A stretch of DNA of 64,000 nt. Source: Callorhinchus milii. Its lineage: Eukaryota. Positions 25,726 to 50,998 of this stretch are shown here, piece after piece (positions within the stretch are counted from its first letter, which is position 1; every line of letters begins with the position of its first letter). The position numbers and the translations under genes are program-made. Location of the stretch: contig NW_024704742.1 of NCBI RefSeq assembly GCF_018977255.1, positions 29,514,001-29,578,000 on the forward strand. The letters are read 5' to 3'. The notes under the pieces were generated by a model. The model saw only the letters and a program-made list of their open reading frames with translations. It did no database searches and had not been told where the DNA came from.

Positions 25726-25762
<37 letters not shown>

Positions 25763-28700
25763 ACACATACACATACATACACACTGGGTGCACACACACA
25801 TACACACACACATATATACATACACACACACATATATATATATACAAACACACACATATATACATATACACACACATACATACATATATATACACATACA
25901 CACACACATACATACACATATACATATATATATACACATACACATACATACACATACATACACACTGGGTACACACACACACATACTGGGTAGACACACA
26001 CATACATACACACTGGGGTACACATACACTGGGTACACATACACTGGGTACACACACACTGGGGTACAGCATACACACACACGCTGGGTACACACACACA
26101 CTGGAGTACACATACACACTGGGTACACACACACACGAACACTCTGGGGTACAGCACACACACACACTCACACACTTTGGGGTACAGCACACACACACAT
26201 ACACTTTGGGGTACAGCACACACAAACACACACACACTCTGGGGCACAGCACACACACACACACACACACACTGTACAGCACACACACACACTGTACAGC
26301 ACACACACACACTTTGGGATACAGTGCATGCACACACACTTTGGGAAACAGTGCACGCACACACCTTGGGATACAGTGCACGCGCACACCTTGGGATACA
26401 GTGCACGCGCACACACTTTGGGACACAGTGCACGCACACACACCTTGGGATACAGTGCACACGCACACACTTTGGGGTACGGCACACACGCACACACTTT
26501 GGGGACGTGCTTGTTTTAAAACGTTTGTGTTTTGAAGGATTCGTTCAACGGTTGTCTTGCACTTTTTTTTGTCACTGTTTCTTTGTATTTTGGTTATTGT
26601 GATTTTTTCTTTAAAAAAGGTTTTCAAACGTCGTCCGACCTGTAAAAGCTTATCGATTTGCCGCACTCCAATGACTGGGCGGCGGTGAGGTGTCCGATGG
26701 AATTACTTTGTCATAATAATAATCCTTGCATTTGATACAGCACCTTATCACATCTTCGAAACGTCTCAAAGGTGCTTCACAGAATATACTTCTGTGAATA
26801 TATTCACAGATTGCAAAGTGGATTGACTGCATATTTTGTGGGCGAAACGCGGCAGCGAATTGCGCACAGCAGTGTCCCACAAACAGTCGTGGATTGAGTG
26901 ATCGCATTTTTTTTGAGTGAATGACGATGAATAACGATCCTCACTTTTAATGTTGCGTCTTTCATGCCAGGACGCTTCAAAGCGCCTCATAGGCTTCACT
27001 GTAAAATGTAGTGACTGTGTTTTTCAGGGGAACACGGCAGCCAATTTGCACGCACCAATGTGACGTAAACAGCCAGGGACTGAGTGACCAATTTTATCTG
27101 GGGGACTGTTGATCAGGACATTGTGAGACACCACCAGCTTCTCTTTTCCAGCTGTGCTATGGGATGTTTAAAGTCCACCTGAACAGTACACAGCGTGAAG
27201 ACCTTTGAGATGTCCTCCCGATATGGAAGGCACTGTATCAAATATCAAATGCAATTATTGTTGTTATTATTATTATATGAAGCGAGGGCACAAAACTAGG
27301 AGCGTCTGAGAACCGTTGTATTGATGAAATGTCACTTGAGCGAAACCAGAAAATGATAGAGGGTTAAAGGTAGTTGAGGGGAAAAGAAATGTTCAGCACG
27401 AAAGGGCAAACCAAACATTTGTGAAGGCAGCTTCAGCGATGGAGGAGGTGTGGGAATCCCCGTTGAAATAGAGAGGCCCAGAGTGAGGATGGAAGAAGGA
27501 TTAAGAGTAGTGTCTTAGATGGTAAGAGATGGTAATCGTTGACGAGATTAATAAGAGACTTGTGGATCTATATCTGTCTGGAATTGGAAAAAATAACATT
27601 ATTACTGTCTCATTGAAGTTTACTCATAATAAAATCTCCTGATTTTAGTACAATTTTCCCGATAAGCTTTTGGTACAATCGTAATACTCGGATTTCGTAC
27701 AGCGCCTTTCAAGTCAGAGGGACATCTCAAAAAAAATCTTAACAGGCGTTACCGTAAAATGTAGTGGCTGTGTAAGTTGTAGGCGAATACAGCAGTCAAT
27801 TTGCACACAACAATATTGCACAAGTAGCCACAAAGTGAATGAGCGGTTTTATTTGGGGGATTGTGGACCAAGATAACGAGGAGAAAGAGGCACTTCTCTT
27901 TTTCAAATAGTGCCATGGGATCTTTAATGTCCACCTTTAACCGGCAGTCGGGCCTTGATTTAACATCTCATCCGAAGCATACAATCTGTCAATGCAGCAC
28001 CTCTGTCCCCAGCACTGCGTTGGAGCTTCCGCCGAGACTTTACCAGTTCAAATCCCTGACGTGGAGCTTGAACGCGCTACCATCTGACTCAGAGCTGAGA
28101 GTGCTAGCGACTGAGCCAGGCTGACGCATGCTGTTGGTAGGATTTTTGAACCTTACAGCACAGAAGGAGGCCATTAGCCCCACAGCCCTGCAAATGTTTC
28201 CTTTTCAGATAGATGAAGTCCAGTTTCCGTTTGAAAGCTGCTATCGAATCTATTTCCCCCAGGGTTTCAGGCAGTATATTGCTATTTGGCCCAACAATCA
28301 ACCTTTGGCTTTTGGTTTTGTTTAATCCTTCAGATTCAGCTGTGGGACACTGCAGGCCAGGAGCGTTTTCGGAAGAGCATGGTGCAGCATTACTACAGGA
28401 ATGTCCACGCTGTGGTCTTTGTTTACGACATAACCAACATGGCCACCTTCCAGAGCCTCCCGGCCTGGATAGAGGAATGCAAGCAGCACTCGCTCGGCGG
28501 AGAAATCCCGCGCATCCTGGTGGGGAACAAGTGCGATCTGAAGGATGCCACCCAGGTCAGAACAGACCTGGCGCAGAAGTTTGCGGATACCCACAGCATG
28601 CCGCTGTTCGAAACCTCGGCCAAGAACCCGGGCGACAATGATCACGTTGAGGCCATTTTCATGACCTTAGCCCACAAACTGAAGAACCACAAGCCCATGA

Positions 28701-28780
28701 TGCTCAGTCAGCCACTGCTAGACGAGAACAAGGTCCAACTGGATCCGGAGCCTAGCCCCGGGGTGGAGTGTTATTGTTGA
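24687..28780 (+). CDS. RAB33B: Ras-related protein Rab-33B-like GTPase (2 exons)
   Basis: Exon 1 24687-24884 ([14 protein letters not shown], ends EKIK|gt); exon 2 28334-28780 (ag|[44 protein letters not shown]-terminal CYC prenylation motif). Phase-0 intron. Confidence 0.95.
24908..25965 (+). repeat. Long degenerate (CA/TA)n microsatellite
   Basis: About 1 kb of CA/TA dinucleotides at the start of the RAB33B intron. Confidence 0.95.
25960..26507 (+). repeat. Minisatellite grown out of the CA tract (ACACTGGGTAC -> ACACTTTGGGATACAGTGCACGCAC)
   Basis: Tandem units whose core motif lengthens progressively from left to right. Confidence 0.85.
27700..28125 (-). mobile_element. Old Deu-domain SINE
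   Basis: gggatctttaatgtccacc...gggccttgatttaacatctcatccgaag core and ctgactcagag...actgagccaggctgac head end. Confidence 0.65.
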
Positions 28781-33030: not shown

Positions 33031-33593
33031 CCCGAAAGGGCTTGGGATTGTCATGTGGAATGGGGGTGCCGATCTGTGGAGGTTGCAAAAAAAATCGGAA
33101 GCAGTATTTTGTTCCCTCCACTCCTCCTCCTCCTCCTCCTCACCCTCCAGCAAGGAATCGAGGTGATCTTTTATGGCTTCCACTCCTCGACCTCACACAG
33201 CGGCTGTAACTGGCTGTACCATGGCCACCGGACTCGCTACTCACTGGTGTCACTTCGCGGTCACTTTTGAGGAGGTCAAGAATTGCAGCCGGGAGGGGTG
33301 GGGAGGGCGCCCGGGAACATTCCCGATTTTCCAAATACCCCGTACGCCTAACCCTCTTAAGCCCACACTGGCCACACACTTCTCAGGCACAACCCAAGAG
33401 CTTTCCTCATGCCCAGTTTATGTCCCAGTATCAACACAACCAACCAACCATAACAACCAACCACAACAACCAACCACAACAACCAACCAAGCTCTCCCTT
33501 CCTCAGCTCCTCCTCTTCCTCTGATGTTATCTTCAATTGTACATAAGTGGCATCGCGGAAGTAGAGAGGGGACTTTGGCCAAAGCACTTGGCC

Positions 33594-35273
33594 ATGGATG
33601 ATCGGGAGCAAAAGGGTATCAATCCCCGCAGTCAAAAAGGTGAGCTCGATGCAATCCAGGAGGCGAGTCCCGACGATGTTGGATTCAGATCTGCAATAAA
33701 TGATGAGTGGGCGATCTACAACGAGGATCCGGATAAATATCAATTCCTTTTTCAATCCCCCTGCTCCACAGCACCTGGTCTGAAGCCAACTTCTCTGCAC
33801 CGAGTGCAGGAAGCTTGGTCTGTAACGAAAGTGAAAGTATCGCGATACGATTCAGGGGCAAAAGGAACTTCATTACATCGATCAAAGTCCGATTTGAATT
33901 TCCTGCAAAGGGAGTTAACCCTCAATCTCTGTTATTTCTCCGGTGACATTGGAAACCTGGTGCAAGAGCTGCAGCCGAGCACAGAACCACTGGCCACGCT
34001 GTGCACTGACAGACAGTGCGGGGACAACGCACAGTGGATCACAGAGCTCGTACGTTACATACAGTCCTTGTCATGGGATCCGGGGAAACAGCACTCAATT
34101 CTGGTTAAAGTAGCAAAGGCTTTTATGCACAACAGTGACCCACATCTGCACTTCCACGAGAAGGTTTTCGTCCCCTCAATTCGTATGTATAAATACTGCA
34201 CTTTGTATAACTGTTTGCTGGAGATGGACAGAGAAGCTTTGGTACAGCTGGAGGCATCGGTGGAAGCAGCTCAAAATCTTGATGTGACTAAAGTGGATTT
34301 GGAGACTCTGGCTGAGCTACTCTGTGCTGATCTTTCCTGGAAACCTCTTGGTTACAGGCTCTTAGAACAACCGTCAACCTCCTCCTACATCGCCCTTTTC
34401 GACCATATCAAATGGCAAGAAAATTGGTGCAAAAGAGAATTTCTCCACGCTCTTCTCTTGTCAATCAAAACAAAACCAGATCAGGTGGAAACTTTCCACA
34501 ACTTGAGAGGAGACAAGATTTTCCTGCCCGCAGTCATCAACTCCAAGTGGGTAAAGAAACTAAAATGCCTGAAGTTACTGCTACACAAACATGTATTTAA
34601 AGAGGAAATCTCATTGAACAGAGTGATGTGGTGCAGTCCCACTGAGGCAGAGGTGTTTTTAGAGACACTGTCAGTCTTCGGATATCCACATATTGCCCAA
34701 GAGTTGGGTAAGTGCATGGGCAGCAGCAATGTTATCAGGTTCAGGGACGAGAAACCACCGAAACAGAAGACAAATACGAAAACATTCAGCAGCGCATATG
34801 TCACTGTCTTACCTGCAAATATCTCCTCTGAGAGTCGTCCACCCAAACTGCACTTACACACCAAACACTGGACACCCAACACTGCACGTGTAACTACAGC
34901 AACACGTTACTGTCATAGATATTGTAGGAAGCCCTCACTGCCTGACCCGTGGCTGTACCGAATGGCAGGAGCTCTGGCCTCTGAATGGACGGCAGTAGCC
35001 AGAGATTTTGGTTTCAGTGAGAGCGACATAGAGAAAACGGCAACTGATCCTTGGTACAACCACCAGCAGCGAATGTTCCACCTCCTGTACAGACTGTCAC
35101 ACGAGCAGCAGATGAGCTTCACAGAGCTGTGCTTCCTGCTGCTTTGTAAAGTCAGTGATTATAAATGTCACCGGCAAATACAGTGTATCATAGGAGCAGC
35201 ACTCAGTGCTGTTGAGCTGCAGGAAGACGTGGACTTATCTAGAAATGAGGGAGAGAACCTGTTCCAGAGGTAA
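33594..35273 (+). CDS. Copy A, 5' ORF (559 aa): variable N-terminus + death-fold region + death domain; stops just before the FIIND
   Basis: Kozak GCCATGG at 33594; uninterrupted ORF; DD-like LPDPWLYRMAGALASEWTAVARDFGFSESDIEK...QQRMFHLLYRL. TAA at 35271 where copy B has CAA. Could be a pseudogene. Confidence 0.6.
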   Translation: MDDREQKGINPRSQKGELDAIQEASPDDVGFRSAINDEWAIYNEDPDKYQFLFQSPCSTAPGLKPTSLHRVQEAWSVTKVKVSRYDSGAKGTSLHRSKSDLNFLQRELTLNLCYFSGDIGNLVQELQPSTEPLATLCTDRQCGDNAQWITELVRYIQSLSWDPGKQHSILVKVAKAFMHNSDPHLHFHEKVFVPSIRMYKYCTLYNCLLEMDREALVQLEASVEAAQNLDVTKVDLETLAELLCADLSWKPLGYRLLEQPSTSSYIALFDHIKWQENWCKREFLHALLLSIKTKPDQVETFHNLRGDKIFLPAVINSKWVKKLKCLKLLLHKHVFKEEISLNRVMWCSPTEAEVFLETLSVFGYPHIAQELGKCMGSSNVIRFRDEKPPKQKTNTKTFSSAYVTVLPANISSESRPPKLHLHTKHWTPNTARVTTATRYCHRYCRKPSLPDPWLYRMAGALASEWTAVARDFGFSESDIEKTATDPWYNHQQRMFHLLYRLSHEQQMSFTELCFLLLCKVSDYKCHRQIQCIIGAALSAVELQEDVDLSRNEGENLFQR

Positions 35274-37040
35274 CACATAAAGGTGCTGGAACATAAGACG
35301 CTTCGAGTGGTTTGTGGCCAGTGGAGTGAAGCCCCTGAGATGAGAGAGATCAGCCCGAAGGTGTTTGAAAGCTTCGTGGATCAGGTGTCCCTGGTTGGTC
35401 CTGTGTTTGATGTGCACACACAAACCAAAGGGACAAAGGTGATGGTGTTTCTTCCCACGTACACTCCGTGTGAAACTGAGCTGAGCCCCTCAGTTCTTGC
35501 AGAGAGTCTATTGACTCTTCTGACCATGAAATACCAAGATGTGGGGAATTGCTTGTGTAAGAAGTTAGAAGCAGTGCTAAGTGCAGAAGAGAAATCAAGA
35601 CTGTTTAAAGTCCTCCTACAGGAGGATTGTGAAGCTGCTGTGAAGCTGATCTTGTCAAAAGGGCAGAGAGCTCTTCAGCTGCTTTGTGAATACCTCAGGG
35701 CATCAGGCAGTGAGATGAGGTTGTGGCCGGCAAAGCTTCGCTCTCTGCTGGAAACATCACCCACCCAGGTCGGACACATCCAAGATGGAAACCTGGAGCT
35801 TGTGGTTCCACTCGCTGTGCTGGAAAGACACCTGTTGCTGTTCACAGAGTCCCTCTCTCCGCTAGCGGTCATAGAAAAGCTGCGAAGATTATTTACTCAG
35901 ACACGTGCTTACTGTTTGTTATACAAACCAGTGGGACGTCAGTACATTGACTGCAGAGTAACACTGAGGGTGTTTTTGATACCCAGGAGTGGCTCACTGG
36001 TGCAGGGACTGGATACAAAGCTGAAAGGTTATAAACGAGTGTTTATTTCAAATATCAGTATTAAAGGGAATGTTTGTTATAGACTACTCTTTAAGGACGT
36101 TACTTCTGACAATTCACTCCTTAGGGTCACTCCAAGAGATGGCAGTGAGTACAAGGAAGCACTGAGCCTTATGGATCCCATGACTAAGTATCTGATTGCT
36201 CTTAATATAAAGGACTGGGTCCAATGGCCTCTGGTGCTGCAGATTACACGAGACAAAAACTCTGTGATATTTGAGGAAACCATTGATGATGAAATGTTGC
36301 AGTTTGAAAATGGGGAATATTTCATTCTCAACCTCGATGGTAAGAAGCATTGTATCATGAGGATTCACCAAGAAATTAGTTACAAAGAATTCAGCCACAA
36401 ATTAAACACTGTGCTGCCGGAGAGAAAACTCTCTGTCTATTACAAACAAGATGGGATCCCTCTGCTGGTTAATAATGGACGTCCAAACGCTTCACAGAAT
36501 ATACTGTAAAGTGAATTGACTGTATATTTGTGGGCCAACGCGGCAGCCAATTGCGCGCAGCAACAAAGCGAGTGCTCTAACCACTGAGCTACAGGACTCC
36601 ACGATGATGAAAGCATCAAAATGATTCTGAGGGACCAATGCGGGAAAGATATTGTTCTGGAAGCTGAAGACATCATTGATGAGGTGATTACAGCAGGAAT
36701 GCAAGTGATGCCATTGGCCAGGTTACCTTCTCCAAATGAACCACTCAGCCGCCGGAGGCCATCTCCCACTGAACAGCATTTTGTGGTTCGACACAGGACA
36801 GCTTTAATTAAGAGGATCTCAGACATCAAAAGTCTTCTGGATGATCTGAGACATGAAAGTGTTATTAACGATAATGAATACCAGAGAATCAGAGGAGAAA
36901 ATATACGCAATGAACAAATCACACACACTGTAGATTACACTATTAACAAAGGGAAAAATGCAATGGATATATTTTATGAGAGTCTTTCCAAAAATGACCC
37001 GCACCTTGTTGAGGACTTGCAACTTAGGGAGATATCTTAA
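35274..37040 (+). pseudogene. Copy A, 3' part: FIIND - PB1-like - CARD, disconnected by an upstream stop and a SINE remnant
   Basis: Same frame as the 5' ORF and near-identical to copy B. SINE remnant at ~36477-36602 adds a TAA at 36507; CARD (QHFVVRHRTALIKRI...DPHLVEDL) ends at 37040. Confidence 0.75.
36477..36602 (-). mobile_element. Internally deleted SINE remnant inside the copy A PB1-like domain
   Basis: Antisense SINE core fused directly to SINE head; absent from copy B at LVNN|DES. Confidence 0.85.
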
Positions 37041-37099
37041 AAATATATTGCAGCCATTTACACCTCCTTCTGTTTTGCAAACCGTTAGTAATAATAATA

Positions 37100-37429
37100 A
37101 TAATATAATAATAATAATCCTTGCATTTGATATAGCGCTTTTCACGTCGGGAGGACGTCCCAAAGCACTTCACAGAATATACTGTAAAGTGAATTGACTG
37201 TATATTTGTGGGCGAACGCGGCAGCCAATTGCGCACAGCAATGTCCCACAAACAGTCGTAGATTGAAAATGACCAATTTATTATTGTTTTTTTTTTGGTT
37301 TTTGGAGGATTATTATTAGGCTCTGTGTGGAGTAAGGAAACTTGCCCAAGGTTTCGCCCTGCCTGGAATTGAACTCAGGTCTCTCGCTTGCAAAGCGAGT
37401 GCTCTAACCACTGAGCTACAGGACTCCAC
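37100..37429 (-). mobile_element. tRNA-headed SINE (young, full length)
   Basis: Near-identical in reverse complement to the copies at 13306 and 50680. Confidence 0.9.
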
Positions 37430-39100
37430 AAGTATTACATTTGCAGGTGTTTGTACAGCTCAATTCCTGAATCCATTATGCTTACCTTTTCTTCTCAAAA
37501 TATTTGAACAGAAGGGACTGTTGTAGTATGAAAATGCGGATTGTAGACATAGGATATGTATGATTCCTCATAGCCCAATCCTGCCGTCACTCTGTGTCCA
37601 CAAAGGTCACGGGATGTTAACCTATGTGAGATTAGTTTCAAAGCATTGTTCTACTGGAATGCATAATATAATAATAATACTTACATTTACTAGAGAGCTT
37701 TTCACATCAAGTTTACTGTGAAGTGGACTGACAATGTTTTTGTTGGCGAAGTTGGCAACCTCATCTTTAATGTCCAACTGAACAGGCAGATGGGATCTTG
37801 GTTTAACGTCTCATCTGAAGAACGTCATCTCTAACAATGCAGTCCTGCTCCAGCATATTACTGGAGTGTAAGCCTGCACTCTCAGTTTAAAGTCCTGACA
37901 TTCGGCTGAACAAATACATTTCTGACTCAGAGGTGAGAGTGACCAATTGATCCAGGCTGACACCTTTATCATCTACCCCACATCTGTGCCGTGACACGCT
38001 CTGCCTTCCTCTACTACCGCAACAACGCCCGGCTCCGCAACTGTCTCACCCGCAGGCCGCCGAGACCCTCGTGCACGCATTCATAACATCCAGGCTTGCC
38101 TGCAAACTCCCTGCTTGTCAGACTCCCCAAACCCTCCCTCCATAGACTGCAGATCATCCAGAATTCTGCAGCCCATGTCTTCGCCTGCACCAGGCTCTGT
38201 GACCCTATCACCCCCATCCTCGCCCGACTCCACTGACTTCCCATCACATAGAGGATACAGTTCAAGATCCTGGCCCTCACTTCAAAGCCCTCCATGGCTT
38301 TGCTCCCCCCTACCTCTGCAACCTCTTAAAGCCTTTACCAACCTGCCTGCACCCTCAGCTCAATGGGCTCCTTCCTGCTTCACATCCCTACCTCGCATGC
38401 TCCACCATTGGCAGGTGGGCCTTCAGCCTCTTTGCCCCACTCTCTGGAATTCCATCCCACAATCCCACCAACTCTTGCCTCCTTCAAGACCTGTCTCAAG
38501 ACCCTCCTCTTCGACCGTGCCTTAAATCACCCTCCCCATGCACTCCACCCTCCCCGATCCCAATCCCCAGTTCGGGTACGAAACATGTACTGCCGACATG
38601 AAAGGTGCTATACAAATATAATTTTGTTGTTGTTGTTTGGCATTGAAAATGAACAGATACGTGTGTCGTCAGCAGGTTTTAAAACAATTTTATAAAAGTT
38701 CCTGTTTATTCTGGTACAAATGCTTAGCTTGAATTTAATGATCAGAAACACCATTGGGTCTAAATTCTGTTCAATTCTCCATCAACAAAATAATTTGAAG
38801 TTAACAGAAATGTTGAGGGGGAAATGAAAGATGTTTTATATAAAAATATATAACTACTTCTATAGGTTTTTTTGTGACACAAATATCTCTACGTTATTAC
38901 AATAAAACCTTTAATTGTTACTCATTAACAAGTCGGGTTCAGAGCAATGTTGTTTTCCTATTTAAGTTCTGTCTTTTCCGAGGCTTTTAACACCAGTGTT
39001 GATGTACAACTAGTTATTAACAAACTACGTGCTATTCTACAAGGCACCGTCAAAGTGGATTGTGCAGCAGGTAAAATGGGGAACATGTTCCTTTGAGTGA

Positions 39101-41278
39101 ATCTGTCTCCTACCCCCGCTCCTCCCCCTGGTACACCACCCACCTCCGCTCACTGAAAAGCCAGGTGCGGGCCGCTGAACGCACCTGTGTCAAATCTGGC
39201 CTAACGGTCCACCGACAAATCTGGCTGGACCTCCTCAAAATTTACCGCTCCACTCTAGCCTCGGCCAAGTCGTCCTTCTACTCCAGGATAATCCTGGAGG
39301 CGAAGAACAACCCCAGGCTACTGTTTTCCACCACAACCCGACTCCTCCGTCCCCCCCGCCACCCCGCGCAGGTCATCTCCTCCAACCTTCACTGCGAGGA
39401 GATGCTGGATTTCCTTGAATCCAAGATCAAGGGAATTCGCTCCGCGGTCACTTCCCCTCCAACATCCACCAACCCCCCACCCCCTCCTCCCACACTCCGA
39501 CTGCTACCCATCCTCCCCGACTCGTACCCGTTTCCCCACCCTCTGTCACCAAACTCATCCTATCCCTAAAACCAACCACCTGCTCCCTTGACCCCATCCC
39601 CACTCCACTCCTTATCTCCCAGCTCCACTTTCTTGCCCCACATATCACCGTCAACCTGTCCCTCTCCTCTGGCTCTGTCCCCATTCCCTTAAAAACTGCC
39701 ACCATCACGCCCACCCTGAAAAAACCCTCCCTTGATGCGTCGCAGCTATCAAGCTACCGGCCCATCTCCAACCTCCCCTTTCTCTCCAAGGTCCTGGAAA
39801 GAGTTGTCGCCTCCCAACTGCGCTCTTTCCTTTCCACCCATTCATTTTTCGAACCCCTTCAGTCAGGTTTCCGTGCTGCCCATAGCACAGAAACTGCCCT
39901 GGTCAAGGTCACCAATGATATCCTGACCATCTGTGACCAGGGCTCCCTCTGCCTCCTCGTCCTCCTCGACCTATCGGCAGCATTCGATACGGTCGACCAC
40001 GCTATCCTACTCCACCGCTTGTCCTCCCACCTCAACCTTCAAGGCACTGTCCTTGAGTGGTTTAGGTCGTACCTTTCTCACCGTCTTCACTTTGTCTCCA
40101 CGAATGGCTTCTCCTCCACCCCCCGCACTGTCTCATGTGGTGTCCCTCAGGGCTCTGTCCTCGGTCCCCTCCTCTTCACCCTCTATATGCTCCCCCTTGG
40201 TGACATCATCCGCAGACATGGGTTAACTTCCACATGTATGCGGATGACACCCAACTCTACCTTTCCTCCTCTACTCTCAACTCCACGACCACCGATGTCC
40301 TGACAGCCTGCCTGTCCGACATCGAGTCCTGGACGAGAGACAACTTTCTTCAGCTCAACGTGCGAAAAACCGAGGCCCTCCTGATTGGCTCACGTCAGCG
40401 CCTCCGCACCTCAGGCGCTGACACCATCAGCATCCAAGGCTGCACTCTCCACCTCTCAAAGCCAGTCAGGAACCTCGGCGTTTTGTTCGACCCTGAGCTG
40501 TCCTTTCTCCCTCACATCCGCACCACAACTGGCACCGCCTTCCATCACCTCCGGAACATCGCCAGACTACGGCACTACCTCACCCCTCACGCTGCTGAAA
40601 CCCTGGTCCACGCCTTTGTCACCTCAAGGCTGGACTATGGGAACTCTCTCCTCGCCGGCCTTCCCGCCACCTCCCTCCACAAGCTGCAGGTCATTCAGAA
40701 CTCTGCAGCTCGTGTACTGTCCCGCACCAGGCTTCGGGACCACATCACTCCCACCCTCGCTCGCCTCCACTGGCTCCCCATCCCCCAGAGGATTGATTTC
40801 AAGATCCTCATCCTCACCTACAAGGCCATTCACGGCCTTGCTCCCTCCTACCTCTCTGACCTACTATCCCCCTACCTACCTGCCCGTACCCTCCGTTCCT
40901 CCGGCTCCGGTCTGCTCCACGTCCCCCGCCCCAACCGCCCTACCATCGGTGGTCGGGCCTTCAGCCTCTCAGCCCCGAGGCTCTGGAACTCCATCCCCCA
41001 GTGCCTTCGCCGCCTCCTCCCTCTCCTCCTTCAAGGCCGGTCTCAAAACCTTTCTCTTTGACCGTGCCTTCAGCTCCCCTCTCGACTCTCTTCCCCCTCC
41101 TCGCTCCCTCCCTTCCCTCCCTCACCCTGACCATTTCCCCCTCCTCGCTCCCTCCCTTCCCTCCCCTCACCCTGACCATTTNCCCCCCTGCTCGGGTCCT
41201 GACCCAACTGTGCAGCGCCTTGGGACGTCCTCCTGACGTGAAAGGCGCTTTATAAATGGAATCTTGTTGTTGTTGTTG
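39101..41278 (+). mobile_element. L2 LINE, 5'-truncated young copy with RT domain
   Basis: [64 protein letters not shown]; few frameshifts; (TTG)n tail. Confidence 0.95.
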
Positions 41279-41279
41279 A

Positions 41280-42196
41280 ACCTGACAGACTGACTGTCAG
41301 ACATCAAGTCCTGGATGAGGGCAAGTTTCCTACAGTTGAGTGTGAACAAGACTGAGGCCCTCCTGATTGCTCGCGCCAGTGTCTCTGCACCTCAGGCTCT
41401 GGCAGCATCAACCTCTATCGTTGCTCACTACAACTCACCAGCCAGTCAGGAACCTCGGTGTCTTGTTCGACCCTCAATTGTCTTTTCTTCCCCACATCCA
41501 AGCCATGACCTGCTCTGCCTTTCCTCACCTCCGTAACATCGCCCGACTCTGCCAATACCTCACCCCTCAGGCCGCTGAAACTCTTGTTCATGCCTTCATC
41601 ACCTCCAGGCTCAACTATGCAAACCCCCTGCTTGTCGGCCTTCCCAACTCCTCCCTCCACAGGCTGCAGATGATCCAGAACTCTGCAGCCCATGTCCTCT
41701 CCTGCACCAGACTCCGTGACACCATCTCCCCCATTCTCGCCCGACTCCATTGGCTCCCTATCCTTCAGAGGATCCAGTTCAGGATCCTGGTCTTCACCTA
41801 CACAGCCCTCCATGGCAGTGCCTCACCCTACCTCTGCGACCTCCTAACCCCCTATCAACCTGCTCGCTCCCTCCGCTCAGCCGACTCTGGCCTGCTTCAT
41901 GTCCCCACCCACCCGACCCACCATTAGCAGGAAAGCCTTCAGCCACTCTGCCCCCAACCTCTGGAATTCTATCCCCCAATCACTCCTCCTCGCCCCCTCC
42001 TTAGCCTCCATCACGTCCCACCTCAAAACTCCCTTATTCAACCATGCCATTGGTCACCCCCCTTCCCCTCCCCTCCCTTCACCACCCCGCCCCCACCACC
42101 CCAGCTCGGGTCTGCAATGCTGTACACTGTCCAGGTCTTGGGACGTCCTCCCGACATGAAAGGCGCTGTACAAATGCAATGTTGTTGTTGTTGTTG
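41280..42196 (+). mobile_element. L2 LINE 3' fragment (older), directly behind the young copy
   Basis: [29 protein letters not shown] and tail. Confidence 0.9.
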
Positions 42197-42601
42197 AAAC
42201 GTTGAGACATTCATTCATTTCAACTATTGCTACTTTCATACACACATATCTATCTCTTGGAGTGTCTGTGTATCGAGCAGCAGCTTTGTCTTACCAGAAA
42301 TTTCTCCCAACTAAGCACACACGGGACTCTTTACCCCAAACTCTTTGGACACAATGCAAATGTTCAAAATAGTTGAATCACAAAGCAATGAAATCCTATT
42401 TACAGATGGGATGATCTCTCTGTTGGAGGAAATGGAATGGCAGCTTGGAATCTCCCTCGGCAACTCTTCACGGACAAAGTGTTGATCATACACGTGTGTT
42501 GTTTTTTGTACCATCGAATTCCTGGCACACCAGGTCCCAGGCTTCCTGTTTCTCTAAAGTTCTGCCAAACGCGGAAGCCAAGTTACAGTCCAAGTCCAGC
42601 A

Positions 42602-43530
42602 ATGTTTGACGTGGAGAGGGATCAGGATGAAGAGTAGGAGACACCCGATTCCCAAATGAAGAGGAAGCGGGTCCACAAATCGTCCCGCGGCCGAGCGCTG
42701 CCTTTTCGGGAGCGGAGAGAAGTGGCAGATGCAGAAGCCGCTCAGGCCGGTGCCTCACACACTCTCAGACGGTTTGCTTCGCGACTGAGAAAGTGGATTC
42801 GGCGGCGACTGAACCTCAACAGCCCCGAAACACCAGTGGCCACGATCAGTGAGGGCCCCCCCGGCACAATAACAAATCTGTACCGTTTGCAACTTGAAGC
42901 TTCAGCTTCTATATCTGGATCTGAGTATAACATTGACAACACATCAGCTTCTGCATCTGCACCGGAGATCAGCAATGACTGAACAACAAAGATTGAGGAA
43001 GACTGTTACGAGCCAATATTAAGAGACTTCCTATTGGTCTCGGATTAGGAAACGCGCTGTGGTATCAGGACATTTAGCAGAAAAAAGTTCTTGCCAAAAG
43101 CCTTTATTGCCCACAGACAGTGTATGAGCCTCTCAACCTATTCGGGTGCTGACAGACAGCTGCTAATCTGCGTGAGGGACTGTCTCCGTGATCTGAAGGG
43201 TGACATGACTTTTCTTGTGCAACAGCTGGTGGGCGACCCAGAGCCGCCTCCCACTCTGTGCACTGACAGCCTGTGTGAACACAACACACAACTCATCAGT
43301 ACATTACAGACCTGCTGCGGTGAACAGGACTCACAGGGAAACCTGCTCCAACTGGCAAAACCTCCACTGTTACTGTTACTGTTGGGTAATAGAGGGCAAT
43401 TGCATGTTTTACGGAAGTGATTTGGCTGCGTTCAAGGACGTGTATAACTGTTTGCTGGAGATGGACACAGAGAAGCTCTGGTACAGCTGGAGGCATCGGT
43501 GGAAAGCAGCTGAAAATCTCGATGTGGCTT
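42602..43530 (+). pseudogene. Copy C: 5' fragment of the copy B-type gene
   Basis: Colinear with rc 48326-47400. Stops at 42635, 42980 and ~43046, indels near 43360-43420, homology ends after AAENLDV. Confidence 0.85.
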
Positions 43531-43721
43531 TTCCAGGCAGGGACTCAATGGGTGTAAAGAGTGTAGACACATTTACTTGACACCATGTTACTTTCAAATA
43601 TAGGTTTTATTAAAGTTTGAACAGACAAATCAGCTATACTGTATCCCTTATACAGCTTCACTAAGCAACGGACAGAATTAAAATCATATTACCCACTACT
43701 CCTCCTCTTTCACCTTTAATC

Positions 43722-44240
43722 GAATTCAAGATCCTCATCCTCACCTACAAGGCCATACACGGCCTTGCTCCCTCCTACCTCTCCGACCTACTATCCCCCG
43801 ACTTACCTGCCCGTACCCTCCGTTCCTCTGGCTCCGGTCTGCTGCACATCCCCCGCCCTAACCGCCCTACCATCCGTGGCCGGGCTTTCAGCCTCTCAGC
43901 CCCTGGGCTCTGGAACTCCATCCCCCAGTGCCTTCTCCCTTTCCTCCTTCAAGGCCGGTCTCACGACCTTTCTCTTTGACCGTGCCTTCAGCTCCCCTCT
44001 CGACTCTCTACCCCCTCCTCGCTCCCTCCCTTCCTTCCCCTCACCCTGACCATTTCCCCCTCCTCGCTCCCTCCCTTCCCTCCCCTCACCCTGACCATTT
44101 CCCCCCTGCTCGGGTCCTGACCCAACTGTCCAGCGCCTTGGGATGTCCTCCCAACGTGAAAGGCGCTCTATAAATGGAATCTTGTTGTTGTTGTCCTCCC
44201 GACGTGAAAGGCGCTCCATAAATGAAATGCTGTTGTTGTA
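43722..44240 (+). mobile_element. L2 LINE 3' end with duplicated tail
   Basis: Matches 40795-41278; terminal ~45 bp repeated at 44194-44238. Confidence 0.85.
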
Positions 44241-44290
44241 TCTTGTTGTTAATAGTCACTTTCTTACTGGAGATAAATTCCTTCATCCCC

Positions 44291-44766
44291 GTACATATAC
44301 ACAGATGCAGTAGAATCGATAGGGATTCCACTGGGAAGTGGGCTGACCCTCTATACAACTCCAACTATTTCAGTGTTACATCTTTCTTTTATGTATTTCT
44401 AACTCCACCTCCCTTGTCACAGAGATAGCCCCCACCTTTCGCAGGCTGCTTTGTACAGAGAGAGATATGGACAACTTCTGGGCAGCTTTCCACAGCCTGC
44501 TTTGTTTCTCAGCCTTGAGATACGCAGGTGTCTGAGGCTGTAGCCTTTTCTTTCTGTGGTCCATTCTTCTTGCATCTATCCTGAAGGTCCCGATTGCTCA
44601 TTATCTCATAGGAGTGAACATCTTCCCAGGAAAATATGAAATGTAATCAGAAGCTAACCTCAACCTGTCCAGCAAAGCTACTTTTAACCTCCACTTCTTC
44701 TGGAACATTCGGTTGCTGCTATCAATACACTAATGTATCGTGAAGTGATAGTCAGTATATTTCAAC
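44291..44766 (+). repeat. Direct repeat, copy 1 (copy B stop codon + 3' flank)
   Basis: Highly similar to 48995-49468; weaker similarity also between ~43660-43720 and ~48790-48850. Confidence 0.85.
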
Positions 44767-47727
44767 AAGAGTCCCCTGAGACATCTCCCTACATTTCAAG
44801 TCATCAACAAGGTATGGGTCATTGTTGCAAAGACTTTTAAAAAACAAATCCATTGCATTTTCCCCTTTCTTAATCGTGTAATCTAACATGCAGGTGATTT
44901 GTTCATTGCGAATATTTTCTCCTCTGATTCTCTGGTATTCATTATCGTTAATAATACTTTCATGTCTCAGATCATCCAGAAGACTTTTGATGTCTGAGAT
45001 CCTCTTAATTAAAGCTGTCCTGTGTCGAACCACAAAATGCTGTTCAGTGGGAGATGGCCTCCGGCAGCTGAGTGGTTCATTTAAAGAAGGTAAACTGGCC
45101 GATTGCACTACTTGGGATTCTGCTTTAATTATCTCATCAATGATGTCTTCACCTTCCAGCATAATGTTTCCCTTCTCTTGTTGCTGCACAATTAGGCTGA
45201 TACTTTCGTCATTATTAACCAGCAGAGGGATCCCATCTTGTTTGTAATAGACAGAGAGTTTTCTCTCCGGCAGCACAGTGTTTAATTTGTGGCTGAATTC
45301 TCTGTAACTAATTTCTTGGTGAATCCTCATGATACAATGATTCTTACCATCAAGGTTGAGAATGAAATATTCCGCATTTTCAAACTGCAATATTTCATCA
45401 TCAATGGTTTCCTCAAATATCACAGAGTTTTTGTCTCGTGTAATCTGCAGCACCAGAGGCCATTGGACCCAGTCCTTTATATTAAGAGCAATCAGATACT
45501 TAGTCATGGGATCCATAAGGCTCAGTGCTTCCTTGTACTCACTGCCATCTCTTGGAGTGACCCTAAGGAGTGAATTGTCAGAAGTAACGTCCTTAAAGAG
45601 TAGTCTATAACAAACATTCCCTTTAATACTGATATTTGAAATAAACACTCGTTTATAACCTTTCAGCTTTGTATCCAGTCCCTGCACCAGTGAGCCACTC
45701 CTGGGTATCAAAAACACCCTCAGTGTTACTCTGCAGTCAATGTACTGACGTCCCACTGGTTTGTATAACAAACAGTAAGCACGTGTCTGAGTAAATAATC
45801 TTCGCAGCTTTTCTATGACCGCTAGCGGAGAGAGGGACTCTGTGAACAGCAACAGGTGTCTTTCCAGCACAGCGAGTGGAACCACAAGCTCCAGGTTTCC
45901 ATCTTGGATGTGTCCGACCTGGGTGGGTGATGTTTCCAGCAGAGAGCGAAGCTTTGCCGGCCACGACCTCATCTCACTGCCTGATGCCCTGAGGTATTCA
46001 CAAAGCAGCTGAAGAGCTCTCTGCCCTTTTGACAAGATCAGCTTCACAGCAGCTTCACAATCCTCCTGTAGGAGGACTTTAAACAGTCTTGATTTCTCTT
46101 CTGCACTTAGCACTGCTTCTAACTTCTTACACAAGCAATTCCCCACATCTTGGTATTTCATGGTCAGAAGAGTCAATAGACTCTCTGCAAGAACTGAGGG
46201 GCTCAGCTCAGTTTCACACGGAGTGTACGTGGGAAGAAACACCATCACCTTTGTCCCTTTGGTTTGTGTGTGCACATCAAACACAGGACCAACCAGGGAC
46301 ACCTGATCCACGAAGCTTTCAAACACCTTCGGGCTGATCTCTCTCATCTCAGGGGCTTCACTCCACTGGCCACAAACCACTCGAAGCGTCTTATGTTCCA
46401 GCACCTTTATGTGTTGCCTCTGGAACAGGTTCTCTCCCTCATTTCTAGATAAGTCCACGTCTTCCTGCAGCTCAACAGCACTGAGTGCTGCTCCTATGAT
46501 ACACTGTATTTGCCGGTGACATTTATAATCACTGACTTTACAAAGCAGCAGGAAGCACAGCTCTGTGAAGCTCATCTGCTGCTCGTGTGTCAGTCTGTAC
46601 AGGAGGTGGAACATTCGCTGCTGGTGGTTGTACCAAGGATCAGTTGCCGTTTTCTCTATGTCGCTCTCACTGAAACCAAAATCTCTGGCTACTGCCGTCC
46701 ATTCAGAGGCCAGAGCTCCTGCCATTCGGTACAGCCACGGGTCAGGCAGTGAGGGCTTCCTACAATATCTATGACAGTAACGTGTTGCTGTAGTTACACG
46801 TGCAGTGTTGGGTGTCCAGTGTTTGGTGTGTAAGTGCAGTTTGGGTGGACGACTCTCAGAGGAGATATTTGCAGGTAAGACAGTGACATATGAGCTGTTG
46901 TCTGTTTTCGTACTTGTCTTCTGTTTCAGTGGTTTCTCGTCCCTGAACCTGATAACATTGCTGCTGCCCATGCACTTACCCAACTCTTGGGCAATATGTG
47001 GATATCCGAAGACTGACAGTGTCTCTAAAAACACCTCTGCCTCAGTGGGACTGCACCACATCACTCTGTTCAATGAGATTTCCTCTTTAAATACATGTTT
47101 GTGTAGCAGTAACTTCAGGCATTTTAGTTTCTTTGCCCACTTGGAGTTGATGACTGCGGGCAGGAAAATCTTGTCTCCTCTCAAGTTGTGGAAAGTTTCC
47201 ACCTGATCTGGTTTTGTTTTGATTGACAAGAGAAGAGCGTGGAGAAATTCTCTTTTGCACCAATTTTCTTGCCGTTTGATATGGTCGAAAAGGGCGATGT
47301 AGGAGGAGATTGACGGTTGTTCTAAGAGCCTGTAACCAAGAGGTTTCCAGGAAAGATCAGCACAGAGTAGCTCAGCCAGAGTCTCCAAATCCACTTTAGT
47401 CACATCAAGATTTTCAGCCGCTTCCACCGAAGTCTCCAGCTGTACCAAAGCTTCTCTGTCCATCTCCAGCAAACAGTTATACACATCCTTGAACGCAGCC
47501 ATATCACTTCCGTAAAACAAGTAATTGAACTCTGTTGGGTCCAAGTGGTTGTTGCTGCTTTGTACGAGAGCTTTTGCCAGTTGGAGCAGGTTTCCCTGTG
47601 AGTCCTGTTCACCGCAGCAGGTCTGTAATGTACTGATGAGTTGTGTGTTGTGTTCACACAGGCTGTCAGTGCACAGAGTGGGAGGCGGCTCTGGGTCGCC
47701 CACCAGTTGTTGCACAAGAAAAGTCAT
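44752..47727 (-). CDS. Copy B: intronless NLRP1/CARD8-like protein, death-fold/DD - FIIND - PB1-like - CARD (991 aa from first in-frame ATG)
   Basis: Open for about 1000 codons. DD ~46750-46485. FIIND ~46400-45400 (VGPVFDV, VFLP, QVGH at 45912, ESL|SPLAV with Ser at 45831, CLLYK, VTLRVFLIP). PB1-like ~45370-45145. CARD ~45045-44795. The ancestral start is probably the Kozak ATG at 48326, now cut off by a frameshift and a TAG. Confidence 0.8.
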   Translation of the reverse strand: MTFLVQQLVGDPEPPPTLCTDSLCEHNTQLISTLQTCCGEQDSQGNLLQLAKALVQSSNNHLDPTEFNYLFYGSDMAAFKDVYNCLLEMDREALVQLETSVEAAENLDVTKVDLETLAELLCADLSWKPLGYRLLEQPSISSYIALFDHIKRQENWCKREFLHALLLSIKTKPDQVETFHNLRGDKIFLPAVINSKWAKKLKCLKLLLHKHVFKEEISLNRVMWCSPTEAEVFLETLSVFGYPHIAQELGKCMGSSNVIRFRDEKPLKQKTSTKTDNSSYVTVLPANISSESRPPKLHLHTKHWTPNTARVTTATRYCHRYCRKPSLPDPWLYRMAGALASEWTAVARDFGFSESDIEKTATDPWYNHQQRMFHLLYRLTHEQQMSFTELCFLLLCKVSDYKCHRQIQCIIGAALSAVELQEDVDLSRNEGENLFQRQHIKVLEHKTLRVVCGQWSEAPEMREISPKVFESFVDQVSLVGPVFDVHTQTKGTKVMVFLPTYTPCETELSPSVLAESLLTLLTMKYQDVGNCLCKKLEAVLSAEEKSRLFKVLLQEDCEAAVKLILSKGQRALQLLCEYLRASGSEMRSWPAKLRSLLETSPTQVGHIQDGNLELVVPLAVLERHLLLFTESLSPLAVIEKLRRLFTQTRAYCLLYKPVGRQYIDCRVTLRVFLIPRSGSLVQGLDTKLKGYKRVFISNISIKGNVCYRLLFKDVTSDNSLLRVTPRDGSEYKEALSLMDPMTKYLIALNIKDWVQWPLVLQITRDKNSVIFEETIDDEILQFENAEYFILNLDGKNHCIMRIHQEISYREFSHKLNTVLPERKLSVYYKQDGIPLLVNNDESISLIVQQQEKGNIMLEGEDIIDEIIKAESQVVQSASLPSLNEPLSCRRPSPTEQHFVVRHRTALIKRISDIKSLLDDLRHESIINDNEYQRIRGENIRNEQITCMLDYTIKKGENAMDLFFKSLCNNDPYLVDDLKCREMSQGTLVEIY

Positions 47728-48326
47728 GTCACCCTTCAGATCACGGAGACAGTCCCTCACGCAGATTAGCAGCTATCTGTCTGCACCCGAATAGGTTGAG
47801 AGGCTCCTACACTGTCTGTGGGCAATAAAGGCTTTTGGCAAGAACTTTTTTCTGCTAAATGTCCTGATACCACAGCGCGTTTCCTGATCCGAGACCAATA
47901 GGAAGTCTCTTAATATTGGCTCGTAACAGTCTTCCCCACTCTCCATTATACAGTCATTGCTGATCTCCAGTGCAGATGCAGAAGCTGATGTGTTATCAAT
48001 GTTATACCCAGATTCAAATACAGAAGCTGATTCTTCAGGTTGCAAACAGCAATTTGTTATTGTGCCGGGGGGCCCTTACTGATCGTGGCCGCTGGTGTCT
48101 CGGGGCTGTTGAGGTTCAGTCGCCGCCGAATCCACTTTCTCAGTCGCAGAAAAGCCCGTCTGAGAGTGTGTGAGGCACCGGCCTGAGCGGCTTCTGCATC
48201 TGCCACTTCTCTCCGCTCCCGAAAAGGCAGGGCTCGGCCGCGGGATGATTTGTGGCCCCGTTTCCTCTTCACTTGGGAATCGGTTGTCTCTTGCTCTTTA
48301 TCACGATCCCTCTCCACGTCAGCCAT
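47728..48326 (-). pseudogene. Disrupted ancestral N-terminal extension of copy B
   Basis: GCCATGG at 48326 (MADVERDRDKEQ...). C6 run at 48067-48072 where copy C has C7; in-frame TAG at 47773-47775 where copy C has CAG. Repairing both gives one 1191-aa ORF. Confidence 0.7.
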
Positions 48327-48994: not shown

Positions 48995-49468
48995 TACATA
49001 TACATGGATGCAATAGAATCGATAGCGATTCCATTGGGAAGTGGGCTGACCCTCTACACAACTCCAACTATTTCAAAGTTATATCTTTCTTTTATATGTT
49101 TTTAACTCCATCTCCCCTTGACACAGAGATAGCCCCCACCCTTCACAGGCTGCTTTGTACAGAGAGAGATAGGGACAACTTCTGGGCAGCCTTCCACAGC
49201 CTGCTTTGTTTCTCAACCTTTGTGATAGGCAGGTGTCTGAGGCTGTAGCCTTTTCTTTCTGTGGTCCACTGTTCTTACATCTATGCTCAAGGACCTGATT
49301 CCTCATTATCTCAGAGGAGTGAACATCTTCCCAGGAAAATATGAAATGTAATCAGAAGCTAACCTCAACCTATCCAGCAAAGCACTTTTAACCATTTAAC
49401 TATCAACCTTCTTGAACATTTGGTTGCTCCTATCAATATATCCCGAGGTAACAGTCAGTATATTTCAA
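48995..49468 (+). repeat. Direct repeat, copy 2 (upstream of copy B)
   Basis: Matches 44291-44766, including agtcagtatatttcaa (the antisense EIY-stop of copy B). Confidence 0.85.
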
Positions 49469-50678: not shown

Positions 50679-50998
50679 GTGGAGTCCTGTAGCTCAGTGG
50701 TTAGAGCACTCGCTTTGCAAGCGAGAGGCCTGAGTTCAATTCCAGGCAGAGGGCGAAACCTTGGGCAAGTTTCCTTACTCCACACAGAGCCTAATAATAA
50801 TCCCTCCAAAACCAAAAACAATAATAAAAAAAATTGGTCATTTTCAATCTACGACTGTTTGCGGAACATTGCTGTGCCAATTGGCTGCCGCGCCAAATAT
50901 ACAGTCAATTCACTTTACAGTGTGTTCTGTGAAGCGCTTTGGGACGTCCTCCAGACGTGAAAAGCGCTATATCAAATGCAAGGATTATTATTATTATT
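50679..50998 (+). mobile_element. tRNA-headed SINE
   Basis: Full head-core-tail copy. Confidence 0.9.

What the first reader, a model, noticed from the sequence alone, without database searches (positions are those of the whole stretch)
33594..47760. Convergent paralogues A and B are mosaics: near-identical core, strongly diverged N-termini (gene conversion with variable 'bait' ends)
Seen: from YNCLLEMD (A ~34205; B ~47480) to PLLVNN (A ~36476; B ~45212), about 2.3 kb is almost identical. A divergent patch follows, then a second near-identical tract (NEPLS...NEQIT), then a divergent CARD end. The N-termini share only a skeleton (GD...LVQ.L...EP..TLCTD..C..N.Q.I...AKA) and their first parts look unrelated. 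The scattered core differences I could read mostly change amino acids (W/R, V/A, T/I, L/S, and a cluster PPKQKTNTKTFSSA vs PLKQKTSTKTDNSS). Inference: old paralogues homogenised by recent intrachromosomal conversion, while the N-termini stay distinct. In NLRP1/CARD8 the N-terminal regions are pathogen-protease tripwires.
Basis: partly seen in the sequence, partly recalled or inferred. Interest (0 to 1): 0.72.

Follow-up and report, generated by a model that had tools for sequence, protein, structure and literature searches.

The report
Flip-prone shark inflammasome-like gene pair
Two facing copies of an uncharacterised elephant-shark immune-sensor gene share a nearly identical middle, both look broken as assembled, and flipping the DNA between them would join one copy's start to the other's end into a single intact gene.

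Summary
The mosaic is real. A (+) and B (-) share a 2,274-nt core with 21 mismatches, flanked by ends that diverged long ago. Contigs of other animals show both 3' ends, so assembly collapse is unlikely.

A has a stop at 35271 and a 129-nt SINE insertion exactly where the core ends. B has a 1-nt frameshift and a stop in its 5' region. A third truncated copy, C, lies between them.

The core's amino-acid bias (18 of 21 changes) does not exceed the neutral expectation.

The genes encode an uncharacterised cartilaginous-fish CARD8-like protein: variable N-terminus, death domain, FIIND, PB1, CARD.

Best reading: conversion keeps the inverted cores alike, and crossover between them flips the 8.7-kb inner segment. 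A crossover anywhere in 34204-35270 gives one open 1,113-aa gene (A start, B end; shark relative 1,107 aa). One RNA-like run holds an A-type 5' junction and a B-type 3' end, though not in one record. Two working genes with different 'bait' ends are not shown, and the tripwire function is analogy only. Long reads or inverse PCR would decide.

The parts
33594..33944 (+). Gene A unique N-terminal region (117 codons, open, polar), starting at ATG 33594
   Evidence: no similarity to B, C or shark N-termini better than E 0.12 in DNA or E 5 in protein
33945..34203 (+). Gene A conserved N-terminal skeleton; closer to shark relatives than B's is
   Evidence: HMM of nine cartilaginous-fish relatives: 36.3 bits vs 26.0 for B; dS about 1.3 vs B
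34204..36477 (+). Left arm of the inverted repeat: A core (helical region, death domain about 34944-35198, FIIND, UPA, most of PB1)
   Evidence: 99.08% to B 47483-45210; domains
35271..35273 (+). Premature stop in A (sense codon in B), between the death domain and the FIIND
35775..35858 (+). Putative FIIND autoproteolysis residues in A: His (35775) and Ser (35856), 27 residues apart, Ser followed by Pro; they lie downstream of A's stop
   Evidence: NLRP1 H1186/S1213/P1214 from PMC9700037 passages
36478..36606 (-). 129-nt insertion in A: internally deleted tRNA-derived SINE (39-nt head piece plus about 87-nt body piece) with a 3-nt duplication and in-frame stops; it interrupts PB1 at the exact end of the core
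36606..36733 (+). A divergent patch (PB1 end and linker)
   Evidence: 37 differences in 128 nt; dN/dS about 1.1 over 48 codons
36734..36922 (+). A second near-identical tract (first half of CARD)
   Evidence: 3 differences in 189 nt; permutation test
36923..37040 (+). A-type CARD end and stop
   Evidence: 23 differences in 115 nt; Pfam CARD
36478..45209 (.). 8.7-kb inner segment between the inverted cores; holds both 3' ends and copy C; the candidate invertible segment
   Evidence: geometry; in-silico crossover gives a 1,113-aa ORF
37099..37430 (-). Full-length young SINE of the family that gave the insertion
   Evidence: 93-100% to the insert pieces; tRNA-like head
42528..43529 (+). Copy C: truncated pseudogene of B's 5' end plus the first 86 nt or so of the core, with stops and frameshifts
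   Evidence: 90.7% to B 48401-47398; translation; alignment; C-type contigs in X1, X2, X5, X6
44752..45209 (-). B-type 3' end: patch, second tract, CARD (45042-44782) and stop; intact
   Evidence: bridged to the core in X5 record 20 and X6 record 25; matches public protein P0164
45210..47483 (-). Right arm of the inverted repeat: B core, open; death domain 46743-46489, His 45912, Ser 45831, UPA to about 45388, PB1 45381-45142
47484..47733 (-). Gene B skeleton region; in-frame Met at 47727 (991-aa ORF)
47734..48326 (-). Gene B unique N-terminal region from ATG 48326, broken by a 1-nt-short C run (48072-48067) and a TAG (47775-47773)
   Evidence: B-type contigs of X1 and X2 carry one more base in this stretch

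Best explanation
A and B are old inverted paralogues of an apparently single-exon, CARD8-like gene (variable N-terminus, helical region, death domain, FIIND, PB1, CARD). Ectopic recombination between them has two outcomes. Non-crossover conversion keeps the 2.27-kb core and part of the CARD nearly identical (shown as a pattern). Crossover within the core inverts the 8.7-kb inner segment and swaps 3' ends between the two promoters and N-termini (inferred). The working gene is most likely A's 5' end joined to B's 3' end (1,113 aa). The window shows the opposite orientation, in which the lesions are split over both genes. By homology (inferred, untested) the protein self-cleaves at the FIIND Ser; loss of the N-terminal half frees a Ser-Pro-initiated UPA-PB1-CARD fragment that polymerises and recruits caspase-1 or ASC.
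For: Divergence strata and sharp block edges. In-silico crossover at any of five tested points in 34204-35270 gives one open 1,113-aa frame; at three points beyond the stop it gives 559 aa. Shark relatives are 1,042-1,214 aa and P0001 is 1,107 aa. All four lesions of the window fall on the two halves that the flip would unite in the other copy. In X5 (RNA by guess), record 21 crosses the core's 5' edge at exactly 47483 with 85 foreign letters and has 5 differences; A has 5 alleles in that stretch and the 3 that are listed are A's. X5 record 20 (2,525 nt) runs unbroken from the core through B's patch, CARD and 3' flank, across 45209 where X1 and X2 contigs break. X6 has an A-specific allele at 47415 and a core-to-B-patch bridge. 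X5 holds 0.64 of A's words; B alone can give 0.51 and an A5'/B3' molecule 0.69-0.74. Public protein P0164 is a B-type 3' end (cDNA origin recalled). The public model of B (P0163, 903 aa) starts at the first Met inside the core, not at the in-frame Met 47727 (a hint only). A's skeleton scores higher than B's against relatives. Precedents: PMC6145291, PMC9731477, PMC3961182.
Against: No single record spans the core, so phase is not shown. RNA status of X5 and X6 is a guess and both come from one study. Some lesions are not fixed: B-type contigs in X1 and X2 (2 of 2 DNA-like runs laid) have the extra base. Their contig ends (45209 and 45238, a 30-nt overlap) point to an A-type branch without the SINE. 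So both genes may be intact in other animals with no inversion, which weakens the lesion-parsimony argument. Model P0162 joins the core to A's 3' end with no SINE sequence. A- and B-type 3' ends score alike against relatives (87.1 vs 86.6 bits), so A's 3' end does not look long dead. FIIND and Death Pfam scores for B are below the curated cut-offs, and the FIIND region did not fold.
Confidence: 0.5

Rival explanations
1. Conversion only. Two fixed, convergent genes, each intact in most animals, keep distinct N-termini and CARD ends while the core is homogenised. The lesions seen here are private alleles or consensus errors.
For: X1 and X2 B-type contigs lack the frameshift, and their branch point suggests a SINE-free A. 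A's 3' end scores as well as B's against relatives. N-termini vary across the family: orthologues P0001 and P0005 match at 79 of 117 N-terminal columns against 45-49 of 50 in most later bins.
Against: It needs four independent lesions in two genes of one haplotype. B's TAG and A's stop could not be resolved in other animals. X5's bridging records pair an A-type 5' junction with a B-type 3' end. B vs C N-terminal dN/dS is about 1.0.
Confidence: 0.27
2. Assembly mis-orientation. The true locus is fixed as A5'-core-B3' plus a decayed B5'-core-A3' copy, and the assembler flipped the inner segment across the 2.27-kb repeat.
For: It predicts the same 1,113-aa frame and the same X5 pattern. In the flipped order copy C becomes a simple direct tandem copy of B's 5' end.
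Against: The window has no N-gaps (3 single N), and the two cores are resolved with 21 distinct sites. The read type behind the window is unknown to me.
Confidence: 0.15
3. Dying locus. All three copies are neutral remnants, the core similarity comes from a recent partial duplication or conversion, and the family's function lies in the unlinked paralogue (P0160 type).
For: Core dN/dS is 1.6, rejecting omega of 0.3 or less (p = 0.002); patch and CARD-end dN/dS are about 1; all copies are broken here.
Against: A's 5' 612 nt are open (0 of 5,000 shuffles). B is open over 991 codons. The His and Ser are kept. A B-type 3' protein is on public record.
Confidence: 0.08

Closest known systems
CARD8 and NLRP1 (FIIND-CARD inflammasome sensors)
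   Same: C-terminal CARD closest to CARD8 (Z 15.8, rmsd 1.2, 87 aligned). FIIND and UPA in register with eight FIIND-CARD proteins. His and Ser 27 apart, then Pro. Variable N-terminus.
   Different: PB1 between UPA and CARD, a death domain before the FIIND, a helical insert of about 80 aa inside the ZU5 part, and a long helical N-terminal region. No NACHT or LRR. Leu, Cys or His instead of Phe before the Ser. Glu at His+7 rather than +9.
Uncharacterised cartilaginous-fish proteins LOC121291735, LOC144695478, LOC144696032, LOC144509344, LOC125464833, LOC119966370, LOC103179628
   Same: Full-length relatives at 35-39% identity with the same domain order.
   Different: A and B form their own long branch. 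The two basking-shark paralogues are not homogenised to this degree. No paper on them was found.
Human CTRB1-CTRB2 16.6-kb inversion (PMC6145291, passages read)
   Same: Oppositely oriented paralogues with an identical middle; an inversion exchanges their 5' parts; the reference carries the minor allele.
   Different: There only promoter, exon 1 and signal peptide swap and the mature enzymes are unchanged. Here a flip would re-pair N-termini with PB1-CARD ends and decide whether any intact gene exists.
Saccharomyces chromosome XIV flip/flop region (PMC9731477, abstract and section 10 read) and human inversions mediated by inverted repeats (PMC3961182, abstract and section 14 read)
   Same: Continual homogenisation of gene-bearing inverted repeats allows recurrent inversion.
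   Different: Both orientations are proven there; here the second orientation is inferred. The repeat here lies inside coding sequence and splits each gene.

Membership tests
FIIND-CARD sensors (CARD8/NLRP1 type) | C-terminal CARD of the caspase-1/ASC class | tested here: met
   Pfam CARD 68.5 bits vs cut-off 23.9; best structural match is CARD8 CARD
FIIND-CARD sensors (CARD8/NLRP1 type) | FIIND (ZU5 plus UPA) upstream of the CARD | tested here: met
   FIIND in 10 of 10 aligned members at E up to 0.5 (best 3.7e-6) and UPA-FIIND in 4 of 10. Profile alignment is in register, but its score includes the CARD. B's own score is below the curated cut-off.
FIIND-CARD sensors (CARD8/NLRP1 type) | Autoproteolysis residues (NLRP1 H1186, E1195, F1212/S1213, P1214) | tested here: inconclusive
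   Ser at His+27 in 11 of 11 rows, His in 9 of 11, Pro after Ser in 10 of 11; Phe absent; invariant Glu at +7, Val at +9 in B
FIIND-CARD sensors (CARD8/NLRP1 type) | Actual self-cleavage, DPP8/9 restraint and caspase-1 activation | not testable with these tools
   Needs expression and assay
FIIND-CARD sensors (CARD8/NLRP1 type) | Disordered N-terminal tripwire cleaved by pathogen proteases and under positive selection (PMC10249858, passages read) | tested here: inconclusive
   N-termini are polar (56-58% DEKRPSGQ) and fast-evolving, but cannot be aligned for a selection test; cleavage not testable
NLRP1 | NACHT and LRR domains | tested here: not met
   No NACHT or LRR family among Pfam matches of any of 10 members at E up to 0.5
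CARD8 | UPA directly followed by CARD, with no other folded domain before the FIIND | tested here: not met
   PB1 fold at 785-864 (Z 11.6, rmsd 2.2, 78 aligned) and death domain at 328-420 (Z 11.4, rmsd 2.3, 90 aligned)
CARD8 | Orthology by tree and synteny | not tested
   No named CARD8 sequences or relatives' loci were at hand; the neighbour here is Rab33B
Concerted evolution by gene conversion | Sharp-edged near-identical tracts inside otherwise old paralogues | tested here: met
   dS strata 0.006 to 1.3; 0 of 100,000 permutations reach the 110-nt run
Recurrent inversion mediated by inverted repeats | Inverted repeats of kilobase size and about 99% identity | tested here: met
   2,274 nt, 99.08%; human cases use repeats of 1.6-24 kb
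Recurrent inversion mediated by inverted repeats | Both orientations seen in single molecules or individuals | tested here: inconclusive
   X5 records 20 and 21 fit the flipped form, but no record spans the core

The most novel reading that the evidence does not exclude
A recurrent flip-flop inversion acts as a heritable switch for an inflammasome-type sensor in the elephant shark. It re-pairs two unrelated N-terminal sensing regions with two different PB1-CARD effector ends, or turns the only intact gene on and off, and it is kept polymorphic while conversion maintains the recombining core. The family itself is an undescribed death domain-FIIND-PB1-CARD sensor of cartilaginous fish.
Probability: 0.2. 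Interest if true: 0.75.

Novelty: new variant of a known kind. Interest (0 to 1): 0.5.

Why it matters
Two points stand. First, cartilaginous fish carry an uncharacterised CARD8-like family with a PB1 domain between UPA and CARD and a death domain upstream, which bears on how FIIND sensors arose and how their released fragment polymerises. Second, the public gene models here (903-aa, 523-aa and 481-aa fragments) probably miss the real 1,113-aa gene. If the inner segment truly flips between animals, this is a natural domain-swap experiment on an innate sensor, testable with four PCR primers. Conversion and inversion between inverted paralogues are themselves well known, so the mechanism is not a new kind.

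Tried and rejected
- Whole-genome look-up: none held for this window.
- Single-sequence fold: mean pLDDT 35.9, unusable. The alignment-based fold resolved only the death domain, a helical insert, PB1 and CARD; the FIIND and the N-terminal 330 residues stayed mostly under pLDDT 50, so their folds are untested.
- Sequence search of the ZU5-UPA region against solved structures: nothing below E 1.
- Atlas hits (best 0.85 to a CARD8-like cluster; 0.82 for the N-terminal part) are leads only.
- No RNA holder listed on record.
- X5 has no cover over 47524-48243, and the listed X6 records there are C-type. A hole in contigs proves nothing, so I do not count this as evidence.
- Summed contig depth (about 35-38 in split core places vs 16-20 in single X1 contigs) is not a copy number and is only a hint. 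131 difference rows, 173 loose-end rows and 917 records were not shown. A's stop and B's TAG could not be genotyped in other animals.
- My guess that X5 carries A's allele cluster at B 46893-46913, which would have placed the crossover just before the stop, was contradicted by its counts per kind of change (one T>A and one A>C, both already used by listed sites).
- Positive selection in the core: not supported (p = 0.32).
- Polarising the 21 sites by eye against shark proteins gave no clean crossover signature.
- The 480-nt direct repeat 44292-44765 / 48995-49468 is not taken as a gene-specific duplication or LTR, because its laid part is a high-copy repeat.
- The SINE as a clean intron: no GT-AG pair among 21 frame-keeping pairs removes it exactly.
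- The A 5' region as intron read-through: unlikely, since 612 nt are open from a Met.
- One search used A's ATG one base off; its A ORF lengths and A N-terminus rows were discarded and redone.
- Literature searches for the family found nothing relevant in the listings. Earlier scan findings: none. No supplements were read.
Full report
Observation. Self-comparison of the window gives one gap-free inverted match of 2,274 nt with 21 mismatches: A 34204-36477 against B 47483-45210. Beyond it come a divergent patch (37 differences in 128 nt), a near-identical tract (3 in 189 nt) and a divergent CARD end (23 in 115 nt). The longest identical run in those 435 nt is 110 nt, reached by 0 of 100,000 permutations. 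Upstream, a skeleton of 81 aligned codons shares 30 residues; further upstream there is no sense-strand similarity (best blastn E 0.12). Synonymous divergence is layered: about 1.3 in the skeleton, 0.23-0.29 in the patch and CARD end, 0.06 in the second tract and 0.006 in the core. The mosaic is real, and this layering is what repeated conversion between old paralogues leaves.

Core differences. Of the 21, three are synonymous, 17 change an amino acid and one creates a stop. For the 20 non-stop changes dN/dS is 1.6, which does not differ from neutral (p = 0.32) but rejects omega of 0.3 or less (p = 0.002).

A runs from ATG 33594 for 559 codons and stops at 35271, after the death domain and before the FIIND. 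At the last base of the core A carries a 129-nt insertion made of two pieces of a tRNA-derived SINE, with in-frame stops; a full copy of that SINE lies at 37099-37430. None of 21 frame-keeping GT-AG pairs removes it exactly. B's likely start is ATG 48326. That frame ends after 89 codons because a C run is one base shorter than in copy C, and a TAG follows at 47775; B is open only from Met 47727 (991 aa). Copy C (42528-43529, +) is a truncated, stop-ridden copy of B's 5' end. As assembled, neither gene encodes a unique N-terminus together with FIIND and CARD.

What the protein is. Full-length relatives were found only in cartilaginous fish: three in the word-index search, and six with matches outside the CARD among the 150 listed of 699 profile hits. 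They are 35-39% identical to B. Near-identical named proteins are from Callorhinchus milii, so the window is elephant shark; the neighbour gene is Rab33B. Across ten aligned members Pfam finds CARD in 10, FIIND in 10, Death in 6, UPA-FIIND in 4 and PB1 in 3 (E up to 0.5). The alignment-based model (mean pLDDT 43.4, confident only in parts) matches CARD8 CARD (Z 15.8, rmsd 1.2, 87 aligned), the MEKK3-type PB1 fold (Z 11.6, rmsd 2.2, 78 aligned) and the ankyrin-G death domain (Z 11.4, rmsd 2.3, 90 aligned). A profile comparison with eight FIIND-CARD proteins puts the family's His and Ser in register with the FIIND cleavage site. In NLRP1 the triad is E1195, H1186 and S1213, cleavage is between F1212 and S1213, and P1214 matters for DPP9 binding (PMC9700037, passages). 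Here Ser lies at His+27 in 11 of 11 rows, His is kept in 9 and Pro follows Ser in 10; Phe is absent and the invariant Glu is at +7. The protein probably works like CARD8, but it is neither CARD8 nor NLRP1 by architecture. The tripwire model (PMC10249858, passages) is an analogy. It fits polar, fast-evolving N-termini and was not testable.

Other animals. I laid 4 of the 24 listed runs on B: X1 and X2, DNA-like by size, and X5 and X6, RNA by guess and from one study. Assembly collapse is unlikely. X2 has separate A-type and B-type 3' contigs. X1-X4 hold 0.72-0.78 of A's words where B alone can give 0.51. Some lesions are not fixed. B-type contigs in X1 and X2 carry one extra base in the stretch with the C run. 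In both runs the core contig ends at 45209 and the B-patch contig starts at 45238, which places the other branch at 45208, as a SINE-free A would. An older public model (P0008) ends its predicted intron inside the SINE, so the SINE was in that sequence too; P0162 has no SINE letters. A's stop and B's TAG could not be resolved, because contigs keep one path.

The flip. Because the cores are inverted, a crossover inside them inverts the 8.7-kb inner segment and swaps the 3' ends. In silico, five crossover points in 34204-35270 each give one open frame of 1,113 aa from A's ATG to B's stop; three points past the stop give 559 aa. The white-shark relative is 1,107 aa. All four lesions then fall on the reciprocal copy. 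X5 fits this. Record 21 crosses the core's 5' edge at exactly A's boundary, with 85 foreign letters and five differences, matching the count of A alleles there (three listed, all A-type). Record 20 runs 2,525 nt unbroken from the core through B's patch, CARD and 3' flank. X6 has an A-specific allele at 47415 and a core-to-B-patch bridge. P0164 is a B-type 3' end with one variant also seen in X1, X2 and X6 (cDNA origin recalled). The public model of B starts at the first Met inside the core. Against this: no record spans the core, RNA status is a guess, contigs drop rare forms, the non-fixed lesions allow two intact genes in other animals, and A's 3' end scores as well as B's against relatives. 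My attempt to place the crossover just before the stop was contradicted by X5's change counts.

Odds. Real inversion with A5'-B3' as the working gene, 0.50. Conversion only with two genes intact elsewhere, 0.27. Mis-oriented assembly, 0.15. Dying locus, 0.08. Shown: the mosaic, the lesions, the domain order, and both 3' types in another animal. Inferred: crossover, expression of the recombinant, self-cleavage and inflammasome function.

Known parallels and novelty. The human CTRB1-CTRB2 inversion swaps 5' parts between oppositely oriented paralogues with identical middles (PMC6145291, passages). The yeast flip/flop region re-inverts because its repeats are continually homogenised (PMC9731477, abstract and section 10). 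Human inversions between repeats of 1.6-24 kb recur often (PMC3961182, abstract and section 14). The genomic mechanism is therefore known. What is new is the family's death domain-FIIND-PB1-CARD layout, for which five searches of the held library showed no relevant paper in their listings (most subscription journals are not covered), and the possibility that orientation decides which sensor exists. Verdict: new variant of a known kind, interest 0.5.

Noticed in passing
window 8189-8449 (-) and 9409-9651 (-): Two separate exon-sized frames match the malate synthase TIM barrel above the Pfam cut-off: an intron-containing malate synthase gene or remnant in a cartilaginous fish.
   Followed up: no
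window 62107-62388 (-): Exon-sized frame matching the CD20-like (MS4A) family.
   Followed up: no
window about 24790-28780 (+): Rab33B, two coding exons, with a long dinucleotide-repeat tract in the intron and a long simple-repeat tract upstream.
   Followed up: partly
Sites shared by P0002 and P0005 against P0001 outnumber the reverse (34 vs 19, p = 0.053; 32 vs 13 without the first bin, p = 0.007): slight conversion or a rate difference.
   Followed up: partly
P0006 and P0161 (Scyliorhinus torazame): Two deep subtypes of the family are annotated as isoforms with neighbouring accession numbers, suggesting adjacent paralogues there too. P0006 and P0158 have Gln in place of the catalytic His.
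   Followed up: no
window B 46200-45964 (A 35487-35723): A helical bundle of about 80 aa is inserted in the ZU5 half of the FIIND; its fold was not searched separately.
   Followed up: no
window 33548-33561 and about 48365-48351: A short shared motif lies just upstream of both start codons (14 of 15 columns, E 1.4); it resembles an ETS-type site (recalled) and may be a shared promoter element.
   Followed up: no
window 12043-12924 (-): 294-aa open frame resembling a hAT/SPIN-type transposase (recalled resemblance; no Pfam match).
   Followed up: no
window 17740-17811, 37355-37424, 50684-50754, 57388-57458: Four tRNA-Ala calls are heads of the abundant SINE family, not tRNA genes.
   Followed up: yes
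window 42528-43529: C-type contigs occur in both RNA-like runs, so the truncated copy may be transcribed.
   Followed up: partly
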